Source: Escherichia phage vB_vPM_PD114. Taken from it: a stretch of DNA of 64,000 nt. The translations under genes and the position numbers were made by a program. Below, one piece after another: positions 9,866-23,253 of the stretch (position 1 is its first letter; each line of letters opens with the position of its first letter). The stretch lies in sequence record MH675927.1; one strand, written 5' to 3'. Under the pieces are notes generated by a model. The model had not been told where the DNA came from. It worked only from the letters and a program-made list of their open reading frames with translations, and did no database searches.

Positions 9866-10981
9866 TTACTCTGCTGGTTCCCAAGTACCTGGAATCATCT
9901 TACGTACACGTACCCCAACAGGCTTGGTAGGAATACCTTCGTCTGAAAATTCTTCGTACTCAATTTCAACAAATTGACCAATAAGTGTCAAAGCATTTTC
10001 TTCTTTACGATAGTTAATGGTTTCATCTGAATCCTTACGCATCAGGAATTCGACTACTTTACCATTTTCCATCTCGCCTGTCAATACCCCGTCACCATTT
10101 TTATCACGCTTTGCACTTACCACCTTAACTTCAAGCGTCTGCCGTGGTTTACGTTTAATAACATCATAAGAACGTTTATCAAACTCGTAAACACCTTGTG
10201 CATTACGATACACCACACCTTCCGCTTTCTCACGCAGAGCTTTTGCATAGAATTCATCAAACTGCTCTTGGTTTTCAATGTACTCTGTATGTACTACACA
10301 AATAAGTTCGTCTAAACCTTTATCTTGAACAACTTCTTTTAGAGCAGCCAAAACTTCAACCCTCTTCTCAAATGGTACAGATGGCACAGGAACATCATAT
10401 ACATAGTATTTAAGAAGCGGAGTGTTAGCATTATGCTTTTTCCACGCACTATTAATTTGTTGAAGGCTAAGAACACCCAAACCAGCAAAAACTTCACCGT
10501 CAAGAGGATGACCAACTACTTCTTTAATGAAGGTTGGAATTTCTTTCCAGTGAGGTGGAAGTTTATATACTTCCCCAGCTTTAGATAAGCATTCACCTTG
10601 CATGTTAATCATTGAACGTAGACCATTCAATTTATACTGTGCATAACCTGGAAACAAAACACGATCAGCATAATCTTTATAATCCTGACATTTCATGGGT
10701 GTGGAAGGAACATGGTTTTCAGCTTCCTCTTTTGTTTTATAATACCCATTCTTAAGTTGCTTTGTCCATTTGGCAAGAGCTTCTATTTCAGCTTGTTCTT
10801 CTGCTGTTGTTTCATTTGAGCGACCAATATTTTTAGGTTCTGCTGTATAAGATTTGCTAGTAATCTTTCCACCTAATTGACCATGAGTAACAGTTACAAC
10901 ACTACCTTCGGTATAGACTGACCACTGTTTAATTTTACCTGTAGAAGTTTTACCATACAATGTAGGATTAGTTTGTTTCAT
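9866..10981 (-). CDS. ATP-dependent ligase-family nucleotidyltransferase (probable DNA ligase)
   Basis: Motif I-like KLNGLR, motif III-like DGEVF, motif IV-like EGVVYR, basic KRKP region and C-terminal OB-like domain; start set at ATG after GGAGG (track start 11029 lies 16 codons upstream). Confidence 0.45.
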   Translation of the reverse strand: MKQTNPTLYGKTSTGKIKQWSVYTEGSVVTVTHGQLGGKITSKSYTAEPKNIGRSNETTAEEQAEIEALAKWTKQLKNGYYKTKEEAENHVPSTPMKCQDYKDYADRVLFPGYAQYKLNGLRSMINMQGECLSKAGEVYKLPPHWKEIPTFIKEVVGHPLDGEVFAGLGVLSLQQINSAWKKHNANTPLLKYYVYDVPVPSVPFEKRVEVLAALKEVVQDKGLDELICVVHTEYIENQEQFDEFYAKALREKAEGVVYRNAQGVYEFDKRSYDVIKRKPRQTLEVKVVSAKRDKNGDGVLTGEMENGKVVEFLMRKDSDETINYRKEENALTLIGQFVEIEYEEFSDEGIPTKPVGVRVRKMIPGTWEPAE

Positions 10982-11171
10982 CTTTAACCTCCAGTTGCGA
11001 AAGAACCCATTTAGCCATTTCAATTTCACCGTGTAGTCTGCCTAGTTCATAGGCATCATCAATATTACCACCAGTGTAATCATCCACCATAAAGTAAGGA
11101 TCTTCGCTACTGTTAGGTGCGTTTGCAATTCTCGTTAGTTCTTCAATAAATGTCATAGTTACCCTTACCAA
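10968..11171 (-). CDS. hypothetical protein (67 aa)
   Basis: ORF track. Confidence 0.3.
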   Translation of the reverse strand: MVRVTMTFIEELTRIANAPNSSEDPYFMVDDYTGGNIDDAYELGRLHGEIEMAKWVLSQLEVKDETN

Positions 11172-11722: not shown

Positions 11723-12127
11723 TTATTGTAGCTTAAGTGAACTGCGAAGACGTTTCTCTTGCTGATCACGAATATGTTGTGGAACCTCATGAATTGAGTC
11801 GTTACCGTGCCTATTTTCAACAACTAAAGAGATAACTTGATAACCAAACTCTTCAGCAAGAGTAAAATAAGGTTTAAGTTCTTTCTCTGTGGTTGAAGTG
11901 TTAGAGACAATAATCTTTTTAATATTAGATGCCATAGCATCACGAACAATACTCTGACACCATGCGTGTGCTTTACCTACATTTTCTGGCTTCCAATCGT
12001 AAACACCACTTTCTGTGTAATGATATTGATCTGCCTCACAGATAGGCCAATAACCTTCAGAAATAATTTCTGCTACTGTAGATTTACCTGCACCTGAAAC
12101 ACCACGTAAAATGATAAGTTGTTTCAT
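11723..12127 (-). CDS. polynucleotide 5'-kinase (T4 Pnk kinase-domain-like)
   Basis: MKQLIILRGVSGAGKST (P-loop) and IIVSNTSTTEKELKPYFTLAEEFGYQV, colinear with the kinase domain of T4 polynucleotide kinase; no HAD phosphatase domain. Confidence 0.6.
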   Translation of the reverse strand: MKQLIILRGVSGAGKSTVAEIISEGYWPICEADQYHYTESGVYDWKPENVGKAHAWCQSIVRDAMASNIKKIIVSNTSTTEKELKPYFTLAEEFGYQVISLVVENRHGNDSIHEVPQHIRDQQEKRLRSSLKLQ

Positions 12128-13060
12128 TTAGCCTCCAAAGAAGTTTTCTATTTCTTTACGTCGCTCTTGTGGATCTAAAGCAGCCCATTGAGTCTTGGTA
12201 AAGTTGTTTCGAAGCCATTCTAGCAAAGTATAATATTCTTCGTCAACAATTTGTTTAGCATTTTTTGGGTTGTCCCAAATCATATCCCACTTCTTATTGC
12301 CACCACGCATAAGGAATTTCTTAGCAAGATAGTATGGTGACTTAATCTTTAACAGCAAGTTAAACGGATAGTTTGTTTCACGAACTACAAACCCTTCGTG
12401 CTTACATTGTTTAGACATTTCAACAACATCTGAAAATTTAATCATCTGATAAACTTCAGGACGTTTAAATTTTGTAACAGATGCAATCCCATCGAGCACA
12501 CCTTCAGGTAGCATGAAACTTGTCCCATCATCATTTTGAATTCTTGCTCCGATTAAGTATGCACCTGGTTCTTCTTCAACAATATGTGGATCAGAAGGAT
12601 CACAGATTTCAAAAAGGAAAGTTGCTTTTGCACTTTCTGTCCACTTAATGAAATATTCTATGTCATCACACTCGGAAACAATATGGTTCTTGGCAAGAGT
12701 TGCAAAATCTGACTCTAGGCTCCCTGTTGTTGATACAATAAGTTGCCCTTTGTACACACCTACAGATGCCATAAAACCGTTTACTTTACGGACAGCATCT
12801 ACAAGTTGGTCTGCTGGAAGATCTGTACCATTCTCAAAACGATTAAAGATTTTAGTAAAAGGCCAAATAACAACATTGTCTTCTGAGTCAACAACCAACC
12901 CACGACAATCTAGAAGTCGTTTGTCAACGTTCCACAAGTTATCCCAGAATACATTGTTTTTGTATTTAAGTACAGCAAGACCAGCATACTCTCCAGATTT
13001 AACTTCTTTTTTATGCACTAAACCTTTTGCAATCAGGTCATCACAATTGAACTTAGCCAC
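12128..13060 (-). CDS. RNA-ligase-like nucleotidyltransferase (putative RNA ligase)
   Basis: KVNGF (KxNG motif I-like), EGFVVR (motif IV-like), KIKSPYY (motif V-like); lies between phosphoesterase and kinase genes. Confidence 0.45.
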   Translation of the reverse strand: MAKFNCDDLIAKGLVHKKEVKSGEYAGLAVLKYKNNVFWDNLWNVDKRLLDCRGLVVDSEDNVVIWPFTKIFNRFENGTDLPADQLVDAVRKVNGFMASVGVYKGQLIVSTTGSLESDFATLAKNHIVSECDDIEYFIKWTESAKATFLFEICDPSDPHIVEEEPGAYLIGARIQNDDGTSFMLPEGVLDGIASVTKFKRPEVYQMIKFSDVVEMSKQCKHEGFVVRETNYPFNLLLKIKSPYYLAKKFLMRGGNKKWDMIWDNPKNAKQIVDEEYYTLLEWLRNNFTKTQWAALDPQERRKEIENFFGG

Positions 13061-13061
13061 C

Positions 13062-13613
13062 TTAATCTCCTTTGATTATCTTATGATGGTCTACAACAAC
13101 AATATCACGCTTATCCATAATAGAGATGATTTCGTCAAAATGCAAGATTTTTCCGTGTGCGTCCCAACCAACGTCCAACATTTTCCCATACAAATGATCA
13201 GGGAATGATCCGTGAGAGTGCCCGTGTAGCATGATTGATCCATGCCCTTGTTTATTCCAGGAAGCCATAGGGTAATGACTTAAGACGAAGAACAGTTTCT
13301 GATATTTCACTTCGTCATAATACACCACCTCGCCATATTCTGCAAGCACTTCTCGGTGTTTGCTGTAATCATGGTTCCCAACACAGTAAGTGATATCACC
13401 TTGAAGACGTGAAGCAATTTTACGGGTATCTTCTTCAGTCCCGAAACAGAAGTCGCCCAAGTGCCACATCTTGACACCAGGACTCGTAGCACATTTATTC
13501 CATGCTTCAATCAGTGCTTCTGTCATATGATCCATATCTTCCCACGGGCGATATTCAGGAGCAAACTCTCGAATACGTTTGTGCATAAAATGCAAATCAC
13601 TTGTAATAAACAT
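13062..13613 (-). CDS. calcineurin-like metallophosphoesterase
   Basis: GDFCFG...(x)GNHDY...HGHSH metallophosphatase signature; 1-nt gap to downstream gene. Confidence 0.6.
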   Translation of the reverse strand: MFITSDLHFMHKRIREFAPEYRPWEDMDHMTEALIEAWNKCATSPGVKMWHLGDFCFGTEEDTRKIASRLQGDITYCVGNHDYSKHREVLAEYGEVVYYDEVKYQKLFFVLSHYPMASWNKQGHGSIMLHGHSHGSFPDHLYGKMLDVGWDAHGKILHFDEIISIMDKRDIVVVDHHKIIKGD

Positions 13614-13975
13614 TAGTATAATCCCTCGCTGAATAGTTCACTGTCGTGACCATTTCTTTCATAGTTAATTTGTTTGGCGTTATCTGCAATGATATAAGCA
13701 TCTTTGCGACTCCACCAATTATAATACTGATCAATAAACCCTTGATTATCAGGTAAGCAAAACAGCTTATCAATCAATCCTGCATCTTTTAAAACATTAA
13801 GTTGTGCAGATAGTACAGGATTTGCATGCCTAACACAAAGAATAATCAATTCTTCGCCATTGTTGAGAATATACTTATTCGCAGCGCATACTATAACACG
13901 TTGAGCATAGTGATCCTCACCAATCCAAGTAAGAGGTTGGTAACAAATATCATGTTGATTAGTAGCGCACATCAA
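13613..13975 (-). CDS. hypothetical protein (120 aa)
   Basis: ORF track. Confidence 0.35.
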   Translation of the reverse strand: MMCATNQHDICYQPLTWIGEDHYAQRVIVCAANKYILNNGEELIILCVRHANPVLSAQLNVLKDAGLIDKLFCLPDNQGFIDQYYNWWSRKDAYIIADNAKQINYERNGHDSELFSEGLY

Positions 13976-14130: not shown

Positions 14131-14505
14131 TTAATAGTTAACACGTTTAATTTCAACACCATAGGATGAAATAAAATTTTCCTTAGCTAACATATATTTA
14201 CCGGCAGCAGAAGGATTTGATGTATGAACATAGATAGTTTTAAGAGCATCCCATTCACCAGCGTACAACATACATTCTACGTCTAAGAACGCATGATATC
14301 CTTCTTGATCTTCTCCAAGATCATTATCGAAGTGTATCTCTGAGATATTATTGAAATTATCTTCATCTGAAACAAAAGATAACCAATCCTCAAAAGATTT
14401 TAACCAAATGGCATCCTCATAACCATAATCTTTAGGATCTCTTAAATCGTCTAACCAAAGAATTTTAGCCACTATCAACCCCCTTCCTGTTTCTCTTCTT
14501 TCCAA
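14131..14505 (-). CDS. hypothetical protein (124 aa)
   Basis: ORF track. Confidence 0.35.
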   Translation of the reverse strand: MERRETGRGLIVAKILWLDDLRDPKDYGYEDAIWLKSFEDWLSFVSDEDNFNNISEIHFDNDLGEDQEGYHAFLDVECMLYAGEWDALKTIYVHTSNPSAAGKYMLAKENFISSYGVEIKRVNY

Positions 14506-16506: not shown

Positions 16507-17400
16507 ATGAAAGTTAGTATTCTGCATGGTGTTGACTGTTATGTTACTGATGTAGACGTTAAAGTGTTTACATTCTCTGGTGGAGAACAACATGTTCAAT
16601 TAGATACGAATCTATCAGGTTTCAATCATGCTACAGACAGAATCTTACTCACTTTAGAAGTAAGATCTGCTAAAGACTTGATGACTTTGGTTATGACTAA
16701 GAATGCATTGGACAATATGCTATATCATAAACCATATTGTGTTGATTTACTCATGTTGTATGTGCCGTATGCACGACAAGACAGAGTGTGTGAGCCTGGG
16801 GAAGCATTCGGAGTTAAAGCATTTGCTTCTATAATTAATTCATTAAATTTCTCACGTGTTATCGTTGCTGATCCGCATAGTGATGTTACTCCAGCAGTGT
16901 TTGACAGACTCTGTGTAATACCTCAAGAGGAGATTGCTTACGAAACTTTAAAGTGGAAGTTACGTATGGAGAATTTTGCTCTTGTTAGCCCTGATGGTGG
17001 TGCTCTTAAGAAAATATTTAAATTATCTAAGAAAATGTCTTTAGATGTGTTCTGTGCAGAGAAGGTTAGAGATACCGCAACAGGTGCTATTGTTCGTACA
17101 GACATTTCTGTACAGGATTTCAATAAGCGTAACCTGATGATCGTAGATGATATCTGTGATGGTGGTAGAACTTTTATTGAATTGGCTAAAGTGCTACGTG
17201 CTCGTAACGCAGGTAAGATTGAGTTATATGTTACACACGGTATCTTCTCTAAAGGTCTTAAAGAGTTGAGTGAACACTTTGACTGCATTCATTCTCTTAA
17301 TGTGTGGGAAGATAACATCCAAGAAGATTCCGGTGTTCTTGTTAAGAATCAGTCAGATTTGCAACAACAAATTGTATCTCCATACGTGTGGAATTTTTAA
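16507..17400 (+). CDS. PRPP-synthetase-family pyrophosphokinase; candidate ADP-ribose pyrophosphokinase (Adps) of NARP1
   Basis: PYARQDR, LVSPDGGALKK, LMIVDDICDGGRTF, VTHGIFSKG align with Prs motifs (PYFGYARQDRR, VVSPDIGG, VLVDDMIDTGGT, ATHPIFSG); RBS AGGAG; followed by NAMPT-like gene. Confidence 0.7.
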   Translation: MKVSILHGVDCYVTDVDVKVFTFSGGEQHVQLDTNLSGFNHATDRILLTLEVRSAKDLMTLVMTKNALDNMLYHKPYCVDLLMLYVPYARQDRVCEPGEAFGVKAFASIINSLNFSRVIVADPHSDVTPAVFDRLCVIPQEEIAYETLKWKLRMENFALVSPDGGALKKIFKLSKKMSLDVFCAEKVRDTATGAIVRTDISVQDFNKRNLMIVDDICDGGRTFIELAKVLRARNAGKIELYVTHGIFSKGLKELSEHFDCIHSLNVWEDNIQEDSGVLVKNQSDLQQQIVSPYVWNF

Positions 17401-17471: not shown

Positions 17472-19205
17472 ATGAATATTTTTGCACCTTTTGCTACTGA
17501 TTGGTACAAACCTGGTCACAAGCAGATGTACAATCAAAATACAAAACTCATTTTCTCTAATTTAACTCCTCGTAATGATAAAAACTTTGCACACTATGCA
17601 GATCGTGAAGCACGTGGTGTGATTGTTTTAGGTATTCGTCGAGCAGTCACTGATGCTCTTGTAACTATGTGGGATAGCTTCTTTAAAATGTCTCGTAGTG
17701 CAGCAGTAAATAAATTTTATCGTATGTCTAAAAATGCATTAGGTGCTTCTGCTCCTTCTGCTGAATGTTGGGGAGAATTGCACGATTTAGGTTATCTTCC
17801 GCTGGAAGTTCGATCTCTGCCAGAAGGTGTTTTGTGTCCTATTGGTGTTCCTGTGTTTACTGTGCATAATACTTTAGAAAAATTCTTTTGGTTAACTAAC
17901 TATGTGGAAACACTGTTGTCAGATGAAACTTGGAAGACAATGACTAATGCCACAGCAGCTTTTCAGTATAAGCGTATCGCTATGGCATATGCGATGGCAA
18001 CGTGTGATAATATTGATCACGTTAACTTCCAGTGTCATGACTTTAGCCTACGTGGTTTAAGTAATATCGAAGATGGTTATAAGAGTGGTATCGCTCACTT
18101 GGCATCGTTCACAGGAACAGATAATATTCTGGCTATTGAAACTGTGCATGACTATTATGGTATTGATTATGATCAGTTTGTTGCAGGTTCTATTCCGGCA
18201 ACAGAACATTCAGTAGCAACGACTAACATTGGAGCTATTGTTGAAGATCTGAAGAAACATTTCCCACATCTTAAAGATGATGTAGATGGGCTTCGTTATG
18301 TAGCAGAAAAAGAGTTTCTTCGTCGTTATATCGAAGAAATTGTTCCAGAAGGTTTTTGTTCATATGTAGCAGACTCTTATGACTATTGGGCTGTATTGAC
18401 TCGCATTCTGGTAGAATTGAAAGATTCCATTATGTCACGAAATGGTCGTCTTGTTATTCGTCCAGATTCAGGAGATCCGGTTAAAGTTGTTGCAGGATAC
18501 AATGTTGAATCTTTTGATAACTATGAAGACCTCTTAAATAATGGTATTGCGACAGCCACTGAAGTAGTTCATTTGGCTGATGTTAATAAGTATTACAATG
18601 TTCTTCAGGATTGCAGTGTTGCTGACTGTATTGATGAAACTTATGAGATTCCTTATTGTGAAGCAGTAGGTTCTATTCAAATCCTTTGGGAAGTGTTTGG
18701 TGGTACTATCAACCGAAAAGGCTACAAGGTTCTTGATCAGCATATCGGTATGATTTATGGTGATTCTATTACTGTTGAACGAGAACACGAGATCTTACGC
18801 CGACTGAAGAAGAAAGGTTTTGCAGCTTCCAATATTGTATTTGGTGTTGGTAGTTATACTTATCAGTTCAATACACGAGATACTTTTGGTTTTGCTGTTA
18901 AAGCAACAGGTAGTATTATCGGTGAACACGAAATTTTGGTAAGTAAGGAGCCTAAAACTGATCCTGGTAAACGCTCTGCAAAAGGTTTTATTAAGGTTGT
19001 TAAGGATACCAATGGTAATCTGTCTCTTGTAGATAATCTTTCTTTTAAAGATATCCAGGATGAAGACAATGAGTTACAAGTTATCTTCAAGGATGGTAAG
19101 GTTATTACACCACAAGTAGAAGGCCGTGATGAAACATTCACTGATATCCGCAACCGTGTTGACGTAGAGGTTCTTCGTACTATGGGAACCATCCAGGTTG
19201 ACTAA
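17472..19205 (+). CDS. nicotinamide phosphoribosyltransferase-family protein; candidate nicotinamide ADPR transferase (Namat) of NARP1
   Basis: 577 aa, NAMPT/NadV-like length and motifs (e.g. SIPATEHSVATT, GDSITVE); RBS AAGGAG; immediately downstream of the Prs-like gene. Confidence 0.7.
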   Translation: MNIFAPFATDWYKPGHKQMYNQNTKLIFSNLTPRNDKNFAHYADREARGVIVLGIRRAVTDALVTMWDSFFKMSRSAAVNKFYRMSKNALGASAPSAECWGELHDLGYLPLEVRSLPEGVLCPIGVPVFTVHNTLEKFFWLTNYVETLLSDETWKTMTNATAAFQYKRIAMAYAMATCDNIDHVNFQCHDFSLRGLSNIEDGYKSGIAHLASFTGTDNILAIETVHDYYGIDYDQFVAGSIPATEHSVATTNIGAIVEDLKKHFPHLKDDVDGLRYVAEKEFLRRYIEEIVPEGFCSYVADSYDYWAVLTRILVELKDSIMSRNGRLVIRPDSGDPVKVVAGYNVESFDNYEDLLNNGIATATEVVHLADVNKYYNVLQDCSVADCIDETYEIPYCEAVGSIQILWEVFGGTINRKGYKVLDQHIGMIYGDSITVEREHEILRRLKKKGFAASNIVFGVGSYTYQFNTRDTFGFAVKATGSIIGEHEILVSKEPKTDPGKRSAKGFIKVVKDTNGNLSLVDNLSFKDIQDEDNELQVIFKDGKVITPQVEGRDETFTDIRNRVDVEVLRTMGTIQVD

Positions 19206-19952: not shown

Positions 19953-20028
19953 GGTTCCATAGCTCACTGACGAGAGCGCACACCTCATAAGTGTCGAGGG
20001 CAGGGATTGTAACCCTGGGGAACCACCA
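19953..20028 (+). tRNA. tRNA-Met(CAT)-like, atypical T-loop
   Basis: Acceptor GGTTCC/GGAACC (position 7 mismatched), D-stem GCTC/GAGC, anticodon loop CTCATAA, T-arm CAGGG-ATTGTAA-CCCTG, encoded CCA. Hand-folded. Confidence 0.4.
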
Positions 20029-20059
20029 TTTAAAAGGAGATGCTATGCATCTCCTATAT

Positions 20060-20145
20060 GCAAGTGTGGTGGAATTGGTGATACACATTGTGCTTAAAAC
20101 GCAACGCTTAAATGATTGAGGGTTCGAATCCCTCCACTTGCACCA
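20060..20145 (+). tRNA. tRNA-Leu(TAA), class II
   Basis: Acceptor GCAAGTG/CACTTGC, anticodon loop CTTAAAA, long variable arm, T-arm GAGGG-TTCGAAT-CCCTC, discriminator A, CCA encoded. Confidence 0.6.
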
Positions 20146-20147
20146 AC

Positions 20148-20253
20148 GCCTAGTAGGGTATTTGGTAATTCCGAGGCCATCAAAGCCTGAAAAATATGTT
20201 AGACCGCTTTGTCTAACTAAATACGAAATATGGTTCGATTCCATAACTAGGCT
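20148..20253 (+). tRNA. tRNA-like element, unusually long (106 nt); possible pseudo-tRNA or tRNA with insertion
   Basis: Perfect acceptor pairing GCCTAGT/ACTAGGC and T-arm TATGG-TTCGATT-CCATA, but 74 nt between them with internal 7-bp hairpin GTTAGAC/GTCTAAC. Confidence 0.25.
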
Positions 20254-20285
20254 TCAATTTAAATAATAATTTTAGTAAAAATATC

Positions 20286-20314
20286 TTGACATTCACTTAG
20301 TTTTTTGTTATAGT
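20286..20314 (+). promoter_or_regulatory. sigma70-like promoter TTGACA-N17-TATAGT
   Basis: Read directly; ~12 nt upstream of next tRNA. Confidence 0.5.
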
Positions 20315-20325
20315 TACTGTGAAAA

Positions 20326-20407
20326 CGGGGTGTATCTCACCTGACTTCTAATCAGGCGTTAACCGAGTAATTGGAGTATGCAGGTTCGAATCCTGTCACC
20401 CCGACCA
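20326..20407 (+). tRNA. tRNA-like with Arg(TCT)-type anticodon arm, atypical D region
   Basis: Acceptor CGGGGTG/CACCCCG, T-arm GCAGG-TTCGAAT-CCTGT, CCA encoded; hairpin CCTGA-CTTCTAA-TCAGG only 7 nt after acceptor, no D-arm found by hand. Confidence 0.4.
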
Positions 20408-20425
20408 AAAAGTTTTAAAAACTAC

Positions 20426-20455
20426 TTGACAAGCAAGATAGTTTTATGTTAGATT
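20426..20455 (+). promoter_or_regulatory. sigma70-like promoter TTGACA-N18-TAGATT
   Basis: Read directly. Confidence 0.4.
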
Positions 20456-20470
20456 TAAAGTATGATAACG

Positions 20471-20560
20471 GGAAGGTAGGGCGCAGCGGTGCGCAACCAG
20501 GTTTGAACCCTGGCCCATTGTAGCGATACGGTGATGGTTCGACTCCATTATCTTCCTCCA
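20471..20560 (+). tRNA. tRNA-Ser(TGA), class II
   Basis: Acceptor GGAAGGT/ATCTTCC (one G-U), anticodon arm CCAGG-TTTGAAC-CCTGG, long variable arm, T-arm GATGG-TTCGACT-CCATT, CCA encoded. Confidence 0.55.
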
Positions 20561-20578
20561 AATTCAACTAGGAGCTTT

Positions 20579-20731
20579 ATGAATTATAAAACTATTGGAC
20601 AGGTTGTTACCGGAGTTAAGATTGTAGATAATAAAGTTGTTTATGAGTATTCTAATCTTCAACAATCTGAAGATGGTAAAAATATTCGTATGGTAAAAGC
20701 AGAACAAAAAGATTCCGGTTGTTTTGAATAA
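20579..20731 (+). CDS. hypothetical small protein (50 aa; track ORF 20531-20731 trimmed to avoid tRNA overlap)
   Basis: TAGGAGC...ATG at 20579 right after tRNA-Ser. Confidence 0.3.
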   Translation: MNYKTIGQVVTGVKIVDNKVVYEYSNLQQSEDGKNIRMVKAEQKDSGCFE

Positions 20732-20739
20732 TTAAGAAC

Positions 20740-20825
20740 GGTAGATTGGTGAAATGGTAGCCACAACAGTTTGCTAAACTGTCGTCGGAAACGGCGTGTA
20801 GGTTCAAGTCCTACATCTACCGCCA
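20740..20825 (+). tRNA. tRNA-Ser(GCT), class II
   Basis: Acceptor GGTAGAT/ATCTACC, anticodon arm ACAGT-TTGCTAA-ACTGT, long variable arm, T-arm GTAGG-TTCAAGT-CCTAC, discriminator G, CCA encoded. Confidence 0.6.
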
Positions 20826-20845
20826 AATTTATGCGAGGAGGATGT

Positions 20846-21226
20846 ATGCCAAGCAATGATTATATGCGGGAATACATGAAAACTCGGTGGCAGAAGCGAA
20901 GAGCTTCCGCAATCCTCCAGCTTGGAGGTAAATGTGTTAATTGTGGGTCTGTAGATGACTTGGAATTTGATCATAAAGATTCAAGCGAGAAGAAGTTTTA
21001 TATTAGTCGAATGAGTTCATGCTCTGAGGCTAAATGGCAGGAAGAACTTGCCAAATGTCAACTTTTGTGCCATGACTGTCACATGAAGAAGACAAGAATA
21101 TCCCAAGACATGGGAAACAGAATTAGAACAACGGTGTGTGTTTGCGGGGCAGTATTTTATAGTACAAAGGCTTATGCTGGACATACACGGTGGTGTAAAG
21201 AGTATGCATCGTTAGCCAAGCGGTAA
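20846..21226 (+). CDS. HNH endonuclease (free-standing, inside tRNA cluster)
   Basis: CVNCGSVDDLEFDHKD...CQLLCHDCHMKK...C-terminal Cys/His cluster; RBS GAGGAGG; last ~7 codons overlap the 5' end of the following tRNA. Confidence 0.55.
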   Translation: MPSNDYMREYMKTRWQKRRASAILQLGGKCVNCGSVDDLEFDHKDSSEKKFYISRMSSCSEAKWQEELAKCQLLCHDCHMKKTRISQDMGNRIRTTVCVCGAVFYSTKAYAGHTRWCKEYASLAKR

Positions 21227-21280
21227 GGCACTTGACTTTTAATCAAGGGAGCGAAGGTTCGAATCCTTCACGATGTACCA
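21206..21280 (+). tRNA. tRNA-Lys(TTT)
   Basis: Acceptor GCATCGT/ACGATGT (G1-U72), D-stem GCC/GGC, anticodon arm CTTGA-CTTTTAA-TCAAG, T-arm GAAGG-TTCGAAT-CCTTC, CCA encoded. Confidence 0.55.
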
Positions 21281-21285
21281 AACAC

Positions 21286-21372
21286 GTAGGTATCGCATAG
21301 CGGCAATTGCTGGAGACTGTAAATCTCCTGCCCTTCGGGGCTTCGTTGGTTCGAGTCCAACTACCTGCACCA
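21286..21372 (+). tRNA. tRNA-Tyr(GTA), class II
   Basis: Acceptor GTAGGTA/TACCTGC, anticodon arm GGAGA-CTGTAAA-TCTCC, long variable arm, T-arm GTTGG-TTCGAGT-CCAAC, discriminator A, CCA. Confidence 0.55.
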
Positions 21373-21379
21373 AATTAAA

Positions 21380-21464
21380 GATGGATTGGCCTAGTGGTTG
21401 GGCGACGGACTGTTAATCCGTGAACGAAAGTTCTAGCAAGGTTCAAATCCTTGATCCATCGCCA
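21380..21464 (+). tRNA. class II (Ser-like architecture) tRNA with GTT anticodon
   Basis: Acceptor GATGGAT/ATCCATC, 3-bp D-stem GCC/GGC, anticodon arm ACGGA-CTGTTAA-TCCGT, 15-nt variable hairpin GAAC-GAAA-GTTC, T-arm CAAGG-TTCAAAT-CCTTG, discriminator G, CCA. Confidence 0.45.
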
Positions 21465-21471
21465 GAATTAT

Positions 21472-21548
21472 GGACTTGTAGAGTTAAGGTAAACCCTCAG
21501 TCGCAAAGAGGCTTCTGGAATTGCAGGTATCGAATCCTGCCGAGTCCA
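21472..21548 (+). tRNA. tRNA, anticodon unresolved
   Basis: Acceptor GGACTTG/CGAGTCC, T-arm GCAGG-(T)ATCGAAT-CCTGC with 8-nt loop; anticodon arm could not be folded unambiguously (possible loop GTCGCAA). Confidence 0.35.
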
Positions 21549-21554
21549 ATTATT

Positions 21555-21629
21555 GCTCCTATCGTATAACGGCTATTACGGTTGCCTTGTAAGCAACTTA
21601 TCAGGGTTCGAGTCCTTGTGGGAGCACCA
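21555..21629 (+). tRNA. tRNA-Thr(TGT)
   Basis: Acceptor GCTCCTA/TGGGAGC, anticodon arm GTTGC-CTTGTAA-GCAAC, T-arm CAGGG-TTCGAGT-CCTTG, CCA encoded. Confidence 0.55.
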
Positions 21630-21652
21630 ATTTTAACTCTAAAGGAGTGTAT

Positions 21653-21976
21653 GTGACAGAAAAAGAGTTAGAGAAATATTTTAATATCAATGTTTTCGAT
21701 GGTTTTGATGATATTGAAGATGTTGAAAGATATTATGAAGTAGAGTTAGATAAGGATAACATTGTAATTCTTTCTGCCACTTATGATTGTGCATATTATG
21801 AAGGTGAATCTCACGTTTATTTTTATGATATGAAAACATCTTTGTTTTATGAAGTACACGCATATCATTGTTCTTGTTATGGTTTAGAAGGTCAGTGGGA
21901 ACCTGAAGAAATAGGTGATTTGAGCTTTACGGTTGCATATCTAAACAGACGTGGTGCATCTACTATTTTAAAATAA
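21653..21976 (+). CDS. hypothetical acidic protein (107 aa) inside tRNA cluster
   Basis: AGGAG then GTG at 21653 (track start 21647 overlaps the RBS); ORF track. Confidence 0.4.
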   Translation: MTEKELEKYFNINVFDGFDDIEDVERYYEVELDKDNIVILSATYDCAYYEGESHVYFYDMKTSLFYEVHAYHCSCYGLEGQWEPEEIGDLSFTVAYLNRRGASTILK

Positions 21977-21990
21977 ATATTAAAAGCCTC

Positions 21991-22020
21991 TTGACAAAGG
22001 GGCTAATAATATGTTAGAGT
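21991..22020 (+). promoter_or_regulatory. sigma70-like promoter TTGACA-N18-TAGAGT
   Basis: Read directly; precedes tRNA-Gly. Confidence 0.45.
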
Positions 22021-22031
22021 AATATTGTTAA

Positions 22032-22106
22032 GCGGGTATAGTGTTAATGGTAGCATATGAGGTTTCCACCCTCCAGGTGCAGGTTCAAGTCCTGTTACTC
22101 GCTCCA
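22032..22106 (+). tRNA. tRNA-Gly(TCC)
   Basis: Acceptor GCGGGTA/TACTCGC, anticodon loop TTTCCAC, T-arm GCAGG-TTCAAGT-CCTGT, CCA encoded. Confidence 0.5.
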
Positions 22107-22537
22107 AGATTATTTAAATGGAATCGCTAGAGAAAATTTCTCTTTTCGCTCATGGTTTTCTCCTTCAAACTCTAGCGGTTCTTTTTAAGTGATTTTTTAG
22201 TTTATTGGAGATTCACTGCCTTAGTGTGAGCTAAAATCGAGGAGCCATCGAACTGTCTGATTAATGATTTGCGAATCATTATAGTTTTAAGACCCCGGCA
22301 GTTTTATGGTGTACCTCTTGAATGTGAATGATGACGGGTTTATGGTTATCCTGGTCGTTAAATATCCAAAAACCTATGTTCCCCTTGAGGGCTTGCGCAG
22401 GCAATGCCAATAAGTCCTGCATTTTCATTTAAAAGAGAATTTATAATGGAAAAAGATGAACTTAAGTATGCTAAGCCTCTGGCTTCTGCTGCACGAAAAG
22501 CAGTTCGTCACTTTGTGGTAACACTGAAGTAATTTAT

Positions 22538-22612
22538 TGGAGATTAGCCTAGTGGGAAGGCAACGGCCTTTGAAGTCGTGATGACTAGGTTCGATTCCTA
22601 GATCTCCAGCCA
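22538..22612 (+). tRNA. tRNA-Gln(TTG)
   Basis: Acceptor TGGAGAT/ATCTCCA, D-stem GCC/GGC, anticodon arm ACGGC-CTTTGAA-GTCGT, T-arm CTAGG-TTCGATT-CCTAG, CCA. Confidence 0.5.
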
Positions 22613-22619
22613 AGATTTA

Positions 22620-22695
22620 CAGTGCGTAGCGCAGTTGGTAGCGTGGGAGCCTTGGACGCTTCAGGTCGCAGGTTCGAGTCCTGCCGCACTGACCA
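22620..22695 (+). tRNA. tRNA-Pro(TGG)
   Basis: Acceptor CAGTGCG/CGCACTG (C1-G72), anticodon arm GGAGC-CTTGGAC-GCTTC, T-arm GCAGG-TTCGAGT-CCTGC, CCA. Confidence 0.55.
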
Positions 22696-22700
22696 AATTT

Positions 22701-22775
22701 GCAGAGATAGCTGAGACGGATTAGTGCTACCCTGAAAAGGTAGAAAGGATGGATCGTTACCATCTCTCTGCACCA
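22701..22775 (+). tRNA. tRNA-Phe(GAA)
   Basis: Acceptor GCAGAGA/TCTCTGC, anticodon arm CTACC-CTGAAAA-GGTAG, T-arm GATGG-ATCGTTA-CCATC (atypical loop), CCA. Confidence 0.5.
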
Positions 22776-22852
22776 AATAACACCATCCAAGGAGTAGACT
22801 TGGTTAACTGTCAATAGCACATTGAGGCTTCTTACAGTGGTGTACTTATTAT

Positions 22853-22937
22853 GGCTAAGTGGTGGAATGGTATACACGATACGCTTAGAACGTATTGCCC
22901 CAAGGGATTGTGAGTTCGAGTCTCACCTTAGCTACCA
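22853..22937 (+). tRNA. tRNA-Leu(TAG), class II
   Basis: Acceptor GGCTAAG/CTTAGCT, anticodon arm ATACG-CTTAGAA-CGTAT, long variable arm, T-arm GTGAG-TTCGAGT-CTCAC, discriminator A, CCA. Confidence 0.55.
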
Positions 22938-22952
22938 AATTATTACAGATTG

Positions 22953-23031
22953 CGCGGGATAGAGGAGTCTGGTCGTCCTCGCCAGTTTCATATGCTGGAG
23001 ATCATCGGTTCAAATCCGATTCCCGCCTCCA
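22953..23031 (+). tRNA. tRNA with CAT anticodon (Met, or Ile2 if lysidine-modified), C1:C72 mismatch
   Basis: Acceptor CGCGGGA/TCCCGCC with unpaired 1:72, D-stem GAGG/CCTC, anticodon arm CCAGT-TTCATAT-GCTGG, T-arm ATCGG-TTCAAAT-CCGAT, CCA. Confidence 0.45.
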
Positions 23032-23089
23032 CTAAATACCTCCCTTCTGGTGTAATGATTAAATTACATTGACACCTCAAGGAACTCAT

Positions 23090-23172
23090 AGCTGGGTAGA
23101 TTTAAAAGAGTATGGTACTCAATATGGCTCCAAACCATAGATCAAGGGGTTCGATTCCTCACCTTGCTGCCA
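23090..23172 (+). tRNA. tRNA-Trp(CCA)-like, boundaries uncertain
   Basis: Anticodon arm TATGG-CTCCAAA-CCATA, T-loop TTCGATT, 3' CCTTGCT-G-CCA; acceptor pairing has a mismatch, D region long. Confidence 0.3.
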
Positions 23173-23177
23173 ATTAT

Positions 23178-23253
23178 TGTGGTATCGTACAGATGGTTAG
23201 TACACTCGACCGATAATCGAGAAACAACGGTTCGACTCCGTTTACCACGACCA
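23178..23253 (+). tRNA. tRNA-Ile(GAT)
   Basis: Acceptor TGTGGTA/TACCACG, D-stem GTAC/GTAC, anticodon arm CTCGA-CCGATAA-TCGAG, T-arm AACGG-TTCGACT-CCGTT, CCA. Confidence 0.45.

What the first reader, a model, noticed from the sequence alone, without database searches (positions are those of the whole stretch)
11723..13613. RNA repair (healing and sealing) cassette: phosphoesterase - RNA-ligase-like - Pnk kinase
Three consecutive minus-strand genes encode a calcineurin-type metallophosphoesterase (GDxxFG...GNHD), a KxNG nucleotidyltransferase of ligase type, and a P-loop kinase colinear with the T4 polynucleotide kinase domain. This is the domain set of Pnkp-type RNA repair systems (3'-end healing, 5'-phosphorylation, sealing), here split into separate ORFs with a metallophosphoesterase instead of the T4 HAD phosphatase. 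With a large tRNA array nearby, a role in repairing tRNAs cut by host anticodon nucleases is plausible.
Basis: partly seen in the sequence, partly recalled or inferred. Interest (0 to 1): 0.7.

Follow-up and report, generated by a model that had tools for sequence, protein, structure and literature searches.

The report
Phage RNA break-repair gene cassette
Three tightly packed genes of a phi92-like coliphage encode a phosphoesterase, an RNA ligase and an RNA 5'-kinase that most likely mend RNAs (probably tRNAs) cut by bacterial defence nucleases; this kind of system is known, and this version has been predicted by comparative genomics but never tested.

Summary
At 11723-13613 (minus strand) lie three translationally coupled genes. 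They encode a 183-aa metallophosphoesterase (MPP) with all metal-binding motifs, a 310-aa Rnl1-family RNA ligase (motif I is KVNG) and a 134-aa Pnk-type 5'-OH polynucleotide kinase.

The window is a Justusliebigvirus-like (phi92-like) coliphage, about 99% identical to ECGD1 over the 4 kb compared. GenBank records already annotate these genes in this way.

Structure models place the ligase nearest T4 Rnl1 and fungal Trl1-LIG. They place the kinase nearest the CthPnkp and T4 Pnk kinase domains.

Across 44 dereplicated ligase lineages, the kinase lies nearby in 41 and the MPP in 40, in permuted gene orders. Fusions occur as kinase-ligase, ligase-kinase, Pnkp-like kinase-MPP-ligase, and this MPP subfamily joined to an Rnl2-type ligase.

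Caveats:
- About half of MPP-family loci have no RNA ligase nearby.
- Two close relatives have lost ligase and kinase together but kept the MPP.
- No experiment exists for this cassette.

Iyer et al. (2022) already described the related rV5 gene neighbourhood. The ligase clade carries invariant Trl1-like residues and often sits beside the NARP1 NAD+ pathway. A 2'-phosphate-dependent, NAD+-linked route therefore remains open.

The parts
13062..13613 (-). Dinuclear metallophosphoesterase (183 aa, aq_1665-like MPP subfamily). Proposed healer of 2',3'-cyclic-phosphate or 3'-phosphate RNA ends.
   Evidence: phrog_547 at 7e-55. Metal ligands D6, H8, D54, N80, H81, H113, H132 and H134 are invariant. 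The profile hits PDB 1xm7 at 2e-22 and no lambda-Pase/CthPnkp chain. It lies next to the ligase in 40 of 44 ligase lineages. An orthologue (54% identity) is fused to an Rnl2-type ligase in L093.
12128..13060 (-). ATP-dependent RNA ligase of the Rnl1 family (310 aa). Adenylylated lysine K92 in motif I (KVNG). Short helical C-terminal region of about 65 aa.
   Evidence: PF09511 at 5.5e-15. T4 Rnl1 2c5u at 1.9e-9 by profile. AF2 pLDDT 93. Foldseek top hits are T4 Rnl1 and Trl1-LIG. Invariant residues: R53, K70, K92, N94, G95, E151, H159, E222, G223, K238, K240, K248 and R252.
11723..12127 (-). 5'-OH polynucleotide kinase of the Pnk/Pnkp clade (134 aa). P-loop G9-S16, catalytic D33, lid R106. No phosphatase domain.
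   Evidence: AAA_33 at 1.1e-9. phrog_505 'polynucleotide kinase' at 6e-9. Profile hits: Pnkp1 4xrp at 6e-7, T4 Pnk at 7e-5, CthPnkp at 1e-4. AF2 pLDDT 93. Foldseek top hits are the CthPnkp and T4 Pnk kinase domains. It is fused to the ligase in 11 viral loci.
13613..13975 (-). 120-aa protein of unknown function (phrog_839), translationally coupled upstream of the MPP gene. Possible accessory component; membership uncertain.
   Evidence: phrog_839 at 3e-46 and no Pfam match. TAATG overlap with the MPP start. Retained with the MPP in L090, which lacks ligase and kinase. Found in only 2 of 44 ligase lineages.
14131..14505 (-). cREC (cyclic-phosphate-processing receiver-like) domain protein. Predicted in the literature to open 2',3'-cyclic phosphates. 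A lineage-specific accessory.
   Evidence: PF20274 cREC_REC at 3e-14, above the gathering score. 49% identical to the rV5-type cREC gene beside the ligase. Present in 4 of 44 ligase lineages. The prediction comes from PMC7824862 and PMC9503650.
13972..14121 (-). 49-aa ORF between the cREC and phrog_839 genes. Annotated in relatives; function unknown.
   Evidence: ORF listed. Annotated as hypothetical in MZ501084 and NC_052652. Its stop overlaps the start of the next gene. No Pfam match.

Best explanation
This is a split RNA end-healing and sealing module that the phage expresses as one operon within its leftward DNA/nucleotide-metabolism gene block.

Host defence ribonucleases include anticodon nucleases and many toxin RNases. 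[quoted passage not shown]

Proposed steps:
1. The 134-aa Pnk-type kinase transfers a phosphate from an NTP to the 5'-OH end.
2. The metallophosphoesterase hydrolyses the 2',3'-cyclic phosphate, and the resulting monoester, to give a 3'-OH end. This is analogous to the MPP domain of bacterial Pnkp and replaces the HAD phosphatase of T4 Pnkp.
3. The Rnl1-family ligase is adenylylated on K92, activates the 5'-phosphate as AppRNA and joins the ends.

The likely substrates are host or phage tRNAs broken in the anticodon loop, so the module would act as a counter-defence.

What is shown by sequence, model and comparative evidence: the fold and catalytic residues of all three enzymes, their co-transcriptional packing, their conserved linkage and their fusions.

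What is inferred: the substrates, the chemistry carried out by the MPP, the order of the steps and the biological target.
For: - Enzyme identities are established.
- The genes are tightly packed, with overlapping or abutting stop and start codons.
- Among 86 loci holding this ligase clade, the kinase is within 10 kb in 80 and the MPP in 71. After dereplication at 70% ligase identity the figures are 41 of 44 and 40 of 44. Four different gene orders occur, which argues for selection on co-occurrence rather than inheritance.
- Fusions found:
  - Kinase-ligase ORFs of 421-432 aa in 11 viral loci, and ligase-kinase proteins.
  - 21 of the 150 best representatives are 700-812 aa. The four scanned against Pfam have the architecture AAA_33 - Metallophos - RNA_lig_T4_1. 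In the one tested, the kinase and phosphatase are most similar to CthPnkp (4gp6 at 4e-13, 4j6o at 3e-14) and the ligase belongs to this clade (E 3e-77).
  - An orthologue of this very MPP fused to a PF09414 RNA ligase, followed by an Rnl1-type ligase and the kinase (L093).
- The kinase family sits beside RNA ligases of three different families in 39 of 54 full-flank viral loci.
- A separate ATP-dependent DNA ligase lies 1.1 kb away at 9866-11029 (PF01068, phrog_114 at 6e-76), so DNA nick sealing does not need this enzyme.
- The cassette is on the opposite strand from the tail genes and more than 40 kb away from them.
- Fifteen tRNA genes lie 6 kb away.
Against: - No biochemical or genetic data exist for this ligase clade, this kinase family or this MPP subfamily. 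Literature searches found none.
- The MPP's only solved relative, aq_1665 (1xm7), has no known function. The MPP is not in the lambda-Pase/CthPnkp subfamily, the one for which 2',3'-phosphoesterase activity on RNA is proven.
- Only 28 of 58 full-flank MPP-family loci have any RNA ligase nearby.
- Two close relatives (L090, MPP 92% identical; L092) keep cREC, MPP and the DNA ligase but lack both RNA ligase and kinase. The MPP can therefore be useful without them.
- The ligase lacks the roughly 120-aa C-terminal domain that gives T4 Rnl1 its tRNA specificity. tRNA targeting is therefore unproven.
- Kinase residues equivalent to T4 R38 and D85 are H36 and N76.
Confidence: 0.72

Rival explanations
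1. Yeast/plant-type, NAD+-linked repair. The cyclic phosphate is opened only to a 2'-phosphate, by cREC or by the MPP. The ligase clade recognises, or requires, a 3'-OH/2'-PO4 end, as Trl1 does. The 2'-phosphate left at the junction is then removed with NAD+ by the phage sirtuin (as proposed by Iyer et al.) or by host KptA/Tpt1. The neighbouring NARP1 pathway keeps NAD+ available.
For: - Motif I is KxNG, as in Trl1-LIG, not KEDG as in T4 Rnl1.
- N94, H159, K248 and R252 are invariant in at least 231 of the 236 sequences. T4 Rnl1 has D and I at the first two positions and no aligned residue at the last two.
- Their spacing mirrors the Trl1 sulfate (putative 2'-PO4) ligands N150, H227 (motif III Glu +9; here +8) and R334/R337 (motif V Lys +9/+12; here +8/+12).
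- cREC lies in the same operon.
- In rV5-like phages and several ~145-kb relatives a sirtuin lies next to the kinase. A 47%-identical Sir2 exists elsewhere in Justusliebigvirus genomes.
- Namat lies within 10 kb in 23 of 44 ligase lineages and Adps in 16. By contrast, Osterman et al. recorded NAD+ reconstitution pathways in just over 5% of phages (10.1101/2024.02.11.579819).
Against: - The residue equivalence rests on motif spacing only. No structural superposition was possible, and by sequence the profile reaches T4 Rnl1 but not Trl1.
- The same four residues are invariant in the trifunctional proteins. The one tested has a CthPnkp-like phosphatase, the type that removes the phosphate completely.
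- Sirtuin and cREC each accompany only 4 of 44 ligase lineages, and the window has no sirtuin.
- The NARP1 linkage could simply reflect clustering of counter-defence genes.
Confidence: 0.17
2. Only the kinase and ligase form the RNA repair unit. The metallophosphoesterase has a different main job. It might degrade nucleotide-based immune signals or 2',3'-cyclic nucleotides, process ADP-ribose derivatives for NAD+ recycling, take part in nucleotide scavenging or act as a protein phosphatase. Its position next to the ligase would then reflect a shared counter-defence island.
For: - 44 of 80 MPP-seeded viral loci lack both the kinase and this ligase clade.
- 30 of 58 full-flank MPP loci have no RNA ligase of any of the three families tested.
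- L090 and L092 keep the MPP after joint loss of ligase and kinase.
- The 11 kinase-ligase fusion loci have no MPP in their flanks.
- The closest solved structure has no assigned function.
- Phage phosphatases that feed NARP1 are known, although those are Macro-domain enzymes (10.64898/2026.01.28.702374).
Against: - The MPP is adjacent to the ligase in 40 of 44 lineages, in several gene orders, often with zero to a few bases of spacing.
- This MPP subfamily is fused to an RNA ligase in L093.
- The ligase clade also occurs fused to another MPP type in Pnkp-like proteins, so an MPP partner is the rule for this ligase.
Confidence: 0.2
3. DNA end-processing. The kinase and phosphoesterase clean 5'-OH and 3'-phosphate DNA nicks for the replication/recombination machinery, as mammalian PNKP does and as T4 Pnkp can do in vitro. 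The cassette would then belong to the surrounding DNA-metabolism block.
For: - The neighbours are exonucleases, a recombination protein, an ATP-dependent DNA ligase, thymidylate synthase and nrdA.
- Pnk-clade kinases often accept DNA ends (structures with ssDNA appear among the hits).
Against: - The partner that co-varies and fuses with the kinase is always an RNA ligase family (Rnl1-, Rnl2- or Rnl5-type), not the DNA ligase.
- The ligase model is closer to RNA ligases of four families than to any DNA ligase.
Confidence: 0.05
4. The ligase-like protein acts mainly as a non-catalytic tail-fibre attachment factor. This is the second activity reported for T4 gp63, and the PHROG and GenBank names imply it.
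For: The only support is the name carried over from T4 gp63 (phrog_562; and the annotations).
Against: - All catalytic residues are invariant across 236 diverse sequences.
- The gene is linked and fused to end-healing enzymes.
- It lies in the metabolism block on the strand opposite the tail genes.
- It lacks the T4-specific C-terminal domain.
Confidence: 0.03

Closest known systems
Phage T4 tRNA repair pathway: Pnkp (PseT) plus Rnl1 (gp63/RnlA)
   Same: - Same logic: a phage-encoded 5'-kinase, a 3'-end phosphoesterase and an Rnl1-family ligase.
- The ligase shares the N-terminal subdomain residues and motifs I, III, IV and V with T4 Rnl1.
- The kinase is colinear with the T4 Pnk kinase domain and superposes on it.
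   Different: - Three separate genes rather than two.
- The phosphatase is a dinuclear MPP instead of the DxDxT HAD domain.
- The kinase is a bare 134-aa domain, with H36 and N76 where T4 has R38 and D85.
- The ligase is 310 aa, with a roughly 65-aa helical tail instead of the roughly 120-aa tRNA-specificity domain.
- The ligase carries N94, H159, K248 and R252, for which T4 has no counterpart.
Bacterial Pnkp (Clostridium thermocellum Pnkp of the Pnkp-Hen1 system; also Pnkp1-Rnl-Hen1)
   Same: - Identical domain set: kinase, metallophosphoesterase and ATP-dependent ligase with an Rnl1-like adenylyltransferase core.
- The kinase model's best structural match is the CthPnkp kinase.
- This ligase clade is also found fused to CthPnkp-like kinase-phosphatase modules.
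   Different: - Split into three polypeptides, in the order MPP-ligase-kinase.
- The MPP belongs to the aq_1665-like subfamily, not the lambda-Pase-like subfamily.
- The ligase profile does not reach the CthPnkp ligase (Rnl4) by sequence.
- No Hen1-type methyltransferase is present among the neighbouring ORFs scanned.
Sirtuin-centred phage RNA-repair neighbourhood, type 2 (Escherichia phage rV5 / Proteus phage Mydo) of Iyer, Burroughs, Anantharaman and Aravind 2022 (PMC9503650, section 3.7.3)
   Same: - Same gene families: a T4-like tRNA ligase, cREC, a nucleotide kinase, a MazG pyrophosphatase and a calcineurin-like phosphoesterase.
- The window's proteins are 40-50% identical to the rV5-type ones.
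   Different: - The defining sirtuin is not in the cassette or anywhere in the 64-kb window. In close relatives it lies about 31 kb away.
- Across lineages the MPP is a near-constant partner (40 of 44), not an occasional one. The sirtuin and cREC are the occasional ones (4 of 44 each).
Fungal/plant tRNA ligase Trl1 (LIG-KIN-CPD)
   Same: - The ligase fold is as close to Trl1-LIG as to T4 Rnl1.
- Motif I is KxNG.
- A conserved His follows motif III and basic residues follow motif V, at Trl1-like spacing.
- Ligase-kinase fusions in the Trl1 order exist in the family.
   Different: - No 2H cyclic phosphodiesterase.
- No Trl1 C-domain.
- No detectable sequence similarity to Trl1 by profile search.
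- A 2'-PO4 requirement is untested.

Membership tests
Rnl1 family of ATP-dependent RNA ligases (T4 RnlA-like, Pfam PF09511) | Covalent nucleotidyltransferase motifs I (lysine nucleophile), III, IV and V | tested here: met
   K92-x-N-G95, E151, E222-G223 and K238-x-K240 are invariant in 42 and in 236 sequences. They align to T4 K99, G102, E159, E227-G228 and K240/K242. PF09511 scores 56 bits against a cut-off of 28.
Rnl1 family of ATP-dependent RNA ligases (T4 RnlA-like, Pfam PF09511) | Rnl1-type N-terminal subdomain with the Arg and Lys that bind the ATP gamma-phosphate, plus the adjacent conserved Phe | tested here: met
   R53, K70 and F72 align to T4 R54, K75 and F77 and are invariant or nearly so. 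The fold search ranks T4 Rnl1 and Trl1-LIG first.
Rnl1 family of ATP-dependent RNA ligases (T4 RnlA-like, Pfam PF09511) | T4 Rnl1-type all-helical C-terminal domain (about 120 aa) that confers tRNA specificity | tested here: not met
   The profile alignment stops at T4 residue 250. Only about 65 residues in six short helices follow motif V. Foldseek TM-scores of 0.5-0.64 with high rmsd reflect the differing C-terminal parts.
Rnl1 family of ATP-dependent RNA ligases (T4 RnlA-like, Pfam PF09511) | RNA 3'-OH/5'-PO4 sealing activity | not testable with these tools
   Requires enzyme assays.
Polynucleotide 5'-kinase clade (T4 Pnk / CthPnkp kinase domains) | P-loop, general-base Asp after strand 2, and lid Arg, in a minimal P-loop phosphotransferase fold | tested here: met
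   G9-x4-G14-K15-S16, D33 (aligned to T4 D35) and R106 (aligned within the T4 R122/R126 lid). The model gives TM 0.73-0.79 to CthPnkp and T4 Pnk, and the top 24 structural hits are polynucleotide or tRNA kinases.
Polynucleotide 5'-kinase clade (T4 Pnk / CthPnkp kinase domains) | Arg that binds the phosphate 3' of the terminal nucleoside (T4 R38, Cth R41) | tested here: not met
   The aligned position is H36, conserved in at least 90% of the family.
T4-type bifunctional Pnkp | C-terminal DxDxT (HAD) 3'-phosphatase domain fused to the kinase | tested here: not met
   The protein ends at residue 134 and the next gene starts 9 nt later. No HAD match in Pfam.
Bacterial Pnkp (kinase - MPP - ligase, Hen1-associated) | Lambda-phosphatase-like MPP domain with proven 2',3'-phosphoesterase activity | tested here: not met
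   The MPP profile hits only 1xm7 (aq_1665) at 2e-22. Neither 4j6o (CthPnkp phosphatase) nor 1g5b (lambda-Pase) appears at E up to 0.1. By contrast, the trifunctional relative P0443 hits 4j6o at 3e-14.
Bacterial Pnkp (kinase - MPP - ligase, Hen1-associated) | Adjacent Hen1 2'-O-methyltransferase partner | tested here: not met
   No methyltransferase domain was found among the ORFs scanned between 8945 and 16137 or in the annotation of relatives.
Calcineurin-like metallophosphoesterase superfamily | Five metal-binding motifs: DxH, GDxx(D), GNH(D/E), H, GHxH | tested here: met
   D6-x-H8, G53-D54, G79-N80-H81-D82, H113 and G131-H132-x-H134. The metal-ligand residues D6, H8, D54, N80, H81, H113, H132 and H134 are invariant in 39 sequences. 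31 of 39 members match PF12850 and 26 of 39 match PF00149.
Sirtuin-centred phage RNA-repair neighbourhood (Iyer et al. 2022, type 2) | Distinct-clade sirtuin gene in the same neighbourhood | tested here: not met
   tblastn with the rV5-type sirtuin finds nothing in the 64-kb window. In ESCO8 (97% identical over the 4 kb compared) the homologue is about 31 kb from the ligase.
Sirtuin-centred phage RNA-repair neighbourhood (Iyer et al. 2022, type 2) | T4-like ligase + cREC + nucleotide kinase + MazG (+ calcineurin-like phosphoesterase) | tested here: met
   All five are present between 8945 and 14505 and are homologous to the rV5-type genes.
Trl1-LIG (Rnl6) 2'-PO4-dependent ligases | Asn of motif I, His after motif III and RxxR after motif V forming the putative 2'-PO4 site | tested here: inconclusive
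   N94, H159, K248 and R252 are invariant in at least 231 of the 236 sequences and similarly spaced. The equivalence is by motif spacing only, because neither model coordinates nor a Trl1 alignment could be obtained.

The most novel reading that the evidence does not exclude
This very large phage ligase clade (7211 representative clusters at E<=1e-3) is not a shortened T4 Rnl1. It is a bacterial-virus counterpart of eukaryotic Trl1 and recognises a 3'-OH/2'-PO4 end through the invariant residues N94, H159, K248 and R252. Repair would then leave a 2'-phosphate junction. The phage sirtuin or host KptA/Tpt1 would remove it using NAD+, which would explain why NARP1 (NAD+ reconstitution) genes sit beside the cassette in about half of the ligase lineages. 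If true, bacterial KptA/Tpt1, long without a known bacterial substrate, would have a natural one. RNA-cleaving and NAD+-depleting defences would also be tied into a single counter-defence pathway.
Probability: 0.17. Interest if true: 0.78.

Novelty: new variant of a known kind. Interest (0 to 1): 0.45.

Why it matters
Bacteria often stop phages by cutting tRNAs and other RNAs. The only phage repair pathway studied in depth is T4 Pnkp plus Rnl1.

The cassette described here is far more widespread. Its ligase clade alone has thousands of diverged representatives in coliphages and in Klebsiella, Pseudomonas, Vibrio, Aeromonas, Acinetobacter and Streptomyces phages. It uses different healing enzymes from T4.

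It is present in genetically tractable BASEL phages (Bas62, and probably Bas63). In some close relatives the ligase and kinase genes are missing together. Its role against PrrC, RloC, PARIS, retron tRNases and toxin RNases can therefore be tested directly.

It would also:
- give a function to the aq_1665-like metallophosphoesterases;
- supply small stand-alone RNA kinase and ligase enzymes as possible reagents;
- allow a test of whether phage RNA repair and NAD+ reconstitution are mechanistically connected.

Tried and rejected
1. Single-sequence searches of the ligase against PDB found nothing. A family profile was needed.
2. Raising the E-value limit to 10 did not bring Trl1 or the CthPnkp ligase into the PDB profile hits. 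The Trl1-like pocket therefore could not be checked by alignment.
Spatial clustering of N94, H159, K248 and R252 could not be measured.
4. The whole-library profile search was partly intended to reach Trl1. It did not, but it revealed the fusion architectures instead.
5. I looked for a sirtuin in the window and found none.
6. I considered that the 'phage phosphatases' that rescue NARP1 might be this MPP. They are Macro-domain Adpp enzymes, so I rejected the idea as stated.
7. NCBIfam gave no useful match for the ligase, MPP, cREC or phrog_839 proteins.
8. The promoter/terminator scan was at background level (30 found against 25.8 expected; 5 against 3.7) and defines no internal signals.
9. Burroughs and Aravind 2016 (PMC5062991) is not held in the library.
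10. Cluster look-up of the fusion proteins returned no names or hosts.
11. The tail-fibre-attachment reading was rejected as an inherited T4 label.


Full report
**What the window is.** The 4-kb stretch around the finding is 98.9% identical to Enterobacteria phage ECGD1. It is 97-98% identical to many Justusliebigvirus (phi92-like, Stephanstirmvirinae) coliphages, including the BASEL phage JohannJBalmer/Bas62. Public records already label the three genes 'phosphoesterase', 'RNA ligase (RNA repair)' and 'ATPase / polynucleotide kinase'. The cassette lies in a leftward-transcribed block with nrdA, thymidylate synthase, thymidine kinase, exonucleases, a recombination protein, a MazG-like pyrophosphatase and an ATP-dependent DNA ligase. 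GC skew changes sign at about 16 kb. To the right come a rightward NARP1-type operon, 15 tRNA genes and the structural genes.

**Checking the observation.**
- *MPP (13062-13613).* It has every metal-binding motif, and these residues are invariant in 39 homologues of 35-77% identity.
- *Ligase (12128-13060).* It passes Pfam RNA_lig_T4_1 (5.5e-15). Its motifs I, III, IV and V are invariant.
- *Kinase (11723-12127).* It passes AAA_33 and matches PHROG 'polynucleotide kinase'.
- *Gene junctions.* They are TAATG, TAA-G-GTG and TAA-ATG, each preceded by a GGAG-type ribosome-binding site. The genes therefore look translationally coupled. The consensus promoter/terminator scan shows nothing above background inside the block.

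**The ligase.**
- A profile of 42 homologues hits T4 Rnl1 (2c5u, 1.9e-9) from residue 51 to 250. R53, K70, F72, K92, G95, E151, E222-G223 and K238/K240 align to T4 R54, K75, F77, K99, G102, E159, E227-G228 and K240/K242.
- The AF2 model (pLDDT 93) is closest to T4 Rnl1 and to fungal Trl1-LIG (E about 1e-13). Rnl3, Rnl2, Rnl5 and DNA ligases follow in that order.
- It differs from T4 Rnl1 in having only about 65 residues after motif V.
- It also has N94, H159, K248 and R252, each present in at least 231 of the 236 diverse sequences. T4 has D and I at the first two positions and no aligned residue at the last two.
- The family is very large: 7211 representatives at 50% clustering with E<=1e-3.
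- It occurs in at least 754 sequenced phage records, mainly from Escherichia, Pseudomonas, Streptomyces, Vibrio, Klebsiella, Acinetobacter and Aeromonas phages.

**The kinase.** The family profile's best solved relatives are all RNA/polynucleotide 5'-kinases:
- Pnkp1 of the Pnkp1-Rnl-Hen1 system: 6e-7
- Mucorales tRNA-splicing kinases: 3e-5
- T4 Pnk: 7e-5
- CthPnkp: 1e-4

The AF2 model (pLDDT 93) superposes best on the CthPnkp and T4 Pnk kinase domains (TM 0.73-0.79). The P-loop, D33 and R106 are invariant. The positions of T4 R38 and D85 are occupied by H36 and N76.

**The phosphoesterase.** Its only significant solved relative is Aquifex aq_1665 (1xm7, 2e-22 by profile), a structural-genomics protein without an assigned function. 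It is not the lambda-phosphatase-like subfamily to which the CthPnkp 2',3'-phosphatase belongs. Its proposed chemistry is therefore an inference from superfamily and genomic context.

**Are the three a functional unit?** I collected 80 viral-contig loci and 6 phage records that hold the ligase clade, then searched their ORFs with iterated profiles.
- The kinase is present in 80 of 86 loci and the MPP in 71 of 86.
- After dereplication at 70% ligase identity (44 lineages), the kinase is present in 41 and the MPP in 40.
- Other neighbours in the 44 lineages: Namat 23, DNA ligase 18, Adps 16, HD protein 7, cREC 4, sirtuin 4 and MazG 4.
- Gene order is permuted: MPP-LIG-KIN here, KIN-LIG-MPP, LIG-KIN-MPP, and divergent MPP-KIN / LIG in rV5.

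Fusions give direct evidence:
- 11 loci carry one kinase-ligase ORF of 421-432 aa.
- Ligase-kinase and MPP-ligase proteins also exist.
- 21 of the best 150 representatives are 700-812 aa. The four scanned against Pfam read AAA_33 - Metallophos - RNA_lig_T4_1. In the one tested, the kinase and phosphatase are CthPnkp-like (4gp6 at 4e-13, 4j6o at 3e-14).
- In locus L093 an orthologue of the window's own MPP (54% identical) is fused to a PF09414 (Rnl2-type) RNA ligase in a 524-aa ORF. An Rnl1-type ligase and the kinase follow it.

**Reciprocal tests temper this.**
- *Kinase-seeded loci.* 39 of 54 full-flank loci have an RNA ligase nearby, from three different families (Rnl1-, Rnl5- and Rnl2-type). 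This fits an RNA-end kinase.
- *MPP-seeded loci.* Only 28 of 58 full-flank loci have any RNA ligase nearby.
- *Natural deletions.* Two close relatives lack ligase and kinase together: L090 (MPP 92% and DNA ligase 85% identical) and L092. L090 keeps cREC, phrog_839, the MPP and the DNA ligase. L092 keeps cREC, the MPP and the DNA ligase.

Kinase and ligase are therefore the obligate pair. They behave as an accessory indel, as counter-defence genes usually do. The ligase nearly always has an MPP next to it, but the MPP family also functions without a ligase.

**Mechanism.** The best-supported reading is a Pnkp-like healing-and-sealing pathway split over three proteins: 5'-phosphorylation by the kinase, removal of the 2',3'-cyclic or 3'-phosphate by the MPP, and ATP-dependent sealing through K92-AMP. 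Its role would be to repair RNAs, probably tRNAs, cut by host defence RNases (confidence about 0.72).
- A separate DNA ligase next door argues against a DNA nick-sealing role.
- The gene's position and its invariant catalytic residues argue against the inherited 'tail fibre attachment' label.

**The NAD+ connection.** Iyer et al. (PMC9503650, section 3.7.3) described the rV5/Mydo neighbourhood. It comprises a sirtuin, a T4-like ligase, cREC, a kinase, MazG and sometimes a calcineurin-like phosphoesterase. They proposed that the sirtuin removes a 2'-phosphate in the way KptA does.
- The window has every component except the sirtuin. In close relatives the sirtuin lies about 31 kb away.
- The NARP1 genes (Adps 16507-17400, Namat 17472-19205) were shown experimentally in Bas63 to rebuild NAD+ (10.1101/2024.02.11.579819). 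They lie 3 kb from the cassette.
- Namat accompanies the ligase in 23 of 44 lineages.
- The ligase clade's invariant N94, H159, K248 and R252 mimic, in motif spacing, the Trl1 residues that hold the putative 2'-PO4 (PMC6379707).
- I could not superpose structures, and the same residues persist in fusions with a complete Pnkp-type phosphatase. I therefore keep this as the most novel open reading, at about 0.17.

**Novelty and verdict.** The kind of system is known (T4 Pnkp/Rnl1, bacterial Pnkp). This gene set is annotated in databases and has been predicted in comparative-genomics papers. I found no experimental work on it. What this analysis adds:
- the near-constant MPP partner of a distinct subfamily;
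- the spectrum of fusions;
- the joint kinase-ligase indel in close relatives;
- the clade-specific Trl1-like residues;
- a measure of the NARP1 linkage.

It is a solid, useful but unsurprising finding: a new variant of a known kind, with interest about 0.45.

Noticed in passing
window 16507-17400 (+) and 17472-19205 (+): A two-gene operon annotated as PRPP synthetase plus nicotinamide phosphoribosyltransferase. It corresponds to NARP1 (Adps + Namat), shown experimentally in the related phage Bas63 to rebuild NAD+ against NAD+-depleting defences. It is transcribed divergently from the repair block. Namat lies within 10 kb of this ligase clade in 23 of 44 lineages and Adps in 16.
   Followed up: partly
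L090:7145-10995 and L092:7321-10448 (viral contigs IMGVR_UViG_3300014004_000001 and 3300030441_000047): Close relatives of the window phage lack the RNA ligase and kinase genes together. L090 retains cREC, phrog_839, the MPP, the hol-like gene and the DNA ligase in the same order. L092 retains cREC, the MPP and the DNA ligase. This is a natural presence/absence polymorphism of the kinase-ligase pair.
   Followed up: partly
L093:8001-11224: One 524-aa ORF fuses an orthologue of the window's MPP to an Rnl2-type (PF09414, KIHGTN motif) RNA ligase domain. A 378-aa Rnl1-type ligase and the kinase follow it, so this cassette has two RNA ligases.
   Followed up: partly
L053:9581-13609, L061:9548-10846 and nine further loci: Kinase-ligase fusion ORFs (421-432 aa) occur in loci with no MPP in the flanks. 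In L053 an Rnl5-type ligase (PF09414 with an N-terminal PHA02142 OB fold) sits 1.7 kb downstream, directly before an Adps-like gene. What heals the 3' end in these loci is unknown.
   Followed up: partly
proteins P0402, P0443, P0454, P0481 and 17 others: Proteins of 700-812 aa carry this ligase clade at their C-terminus. The four scanned against Pfam (P0402, P0443, P0454, P0481) read kinase - Metallophos - ligase. In the one tested (P0443) the kinase and phosphatase resemble CthPnkp. Source organisms and any Hen1 partners were not determined.
   Followed up: partly
window 14131-14505 (-): A cREC (cyclic-phosphate-processing receiver-like, PF20274) protein. It has the LWLDD and FDNDLG acidic motifs and lies in the same tightly packed gene string as the cassette. 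The domain family is still experimentally uncharacterised.
   Followed up: partly
window 19953-23253: The two tRNA callers disagree. Rfam finds a tRNA at 20326-20404 that ARAGORN misses. ARAGORN's tRNA-Met at 19953-20028 and tRNA-Ser(tga) at 20471-20560 are not reported by Rfam at gathering score. ARAGORN's tRNA-Asn(gtt) at 21380-21464 is 85 nt, long for an Asn tRNA. The set includes Lys(ttt), Tyr, Asn and Gln, which are typical anticodon-nuclease targets.
   Followed up: no
outside the window; e.g. OM386653.1 48190-48993 and NC_052655.1 101328-102131: Justusliebigvirus genomes encode a Sir2-like protein 47% identical to the sirtuin that sits beside the ligase in rV5-like phages. Here it lies about 31 kb from the cassette. 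Homologues also occur in T5-like phages.
   Followed up: partly
L004:3493-4053, L006:4735-5205 and 15 further loci: In Pakpunavirus, Otagovirus and related Pseudomonas-phage-like contigs, a protein annotated as an HD-domain phosphohydrolase precedes the MPP. The order is DNA ligase - HD - MPP - RNA ligase - kinase - Adps - Namat. The HD protein had no Pfam hit at E<=0.001 and may be a second end-healing enzyme.
   Followed up: no
window 13613-13975 (-): A 120-aa protein (phrog_839, no Pfam match) ending in ...ELFSEGLY. It is translationally coupled to the MPP gene and co-retained with it in L090. Its function is unknown.
   Followed up: no
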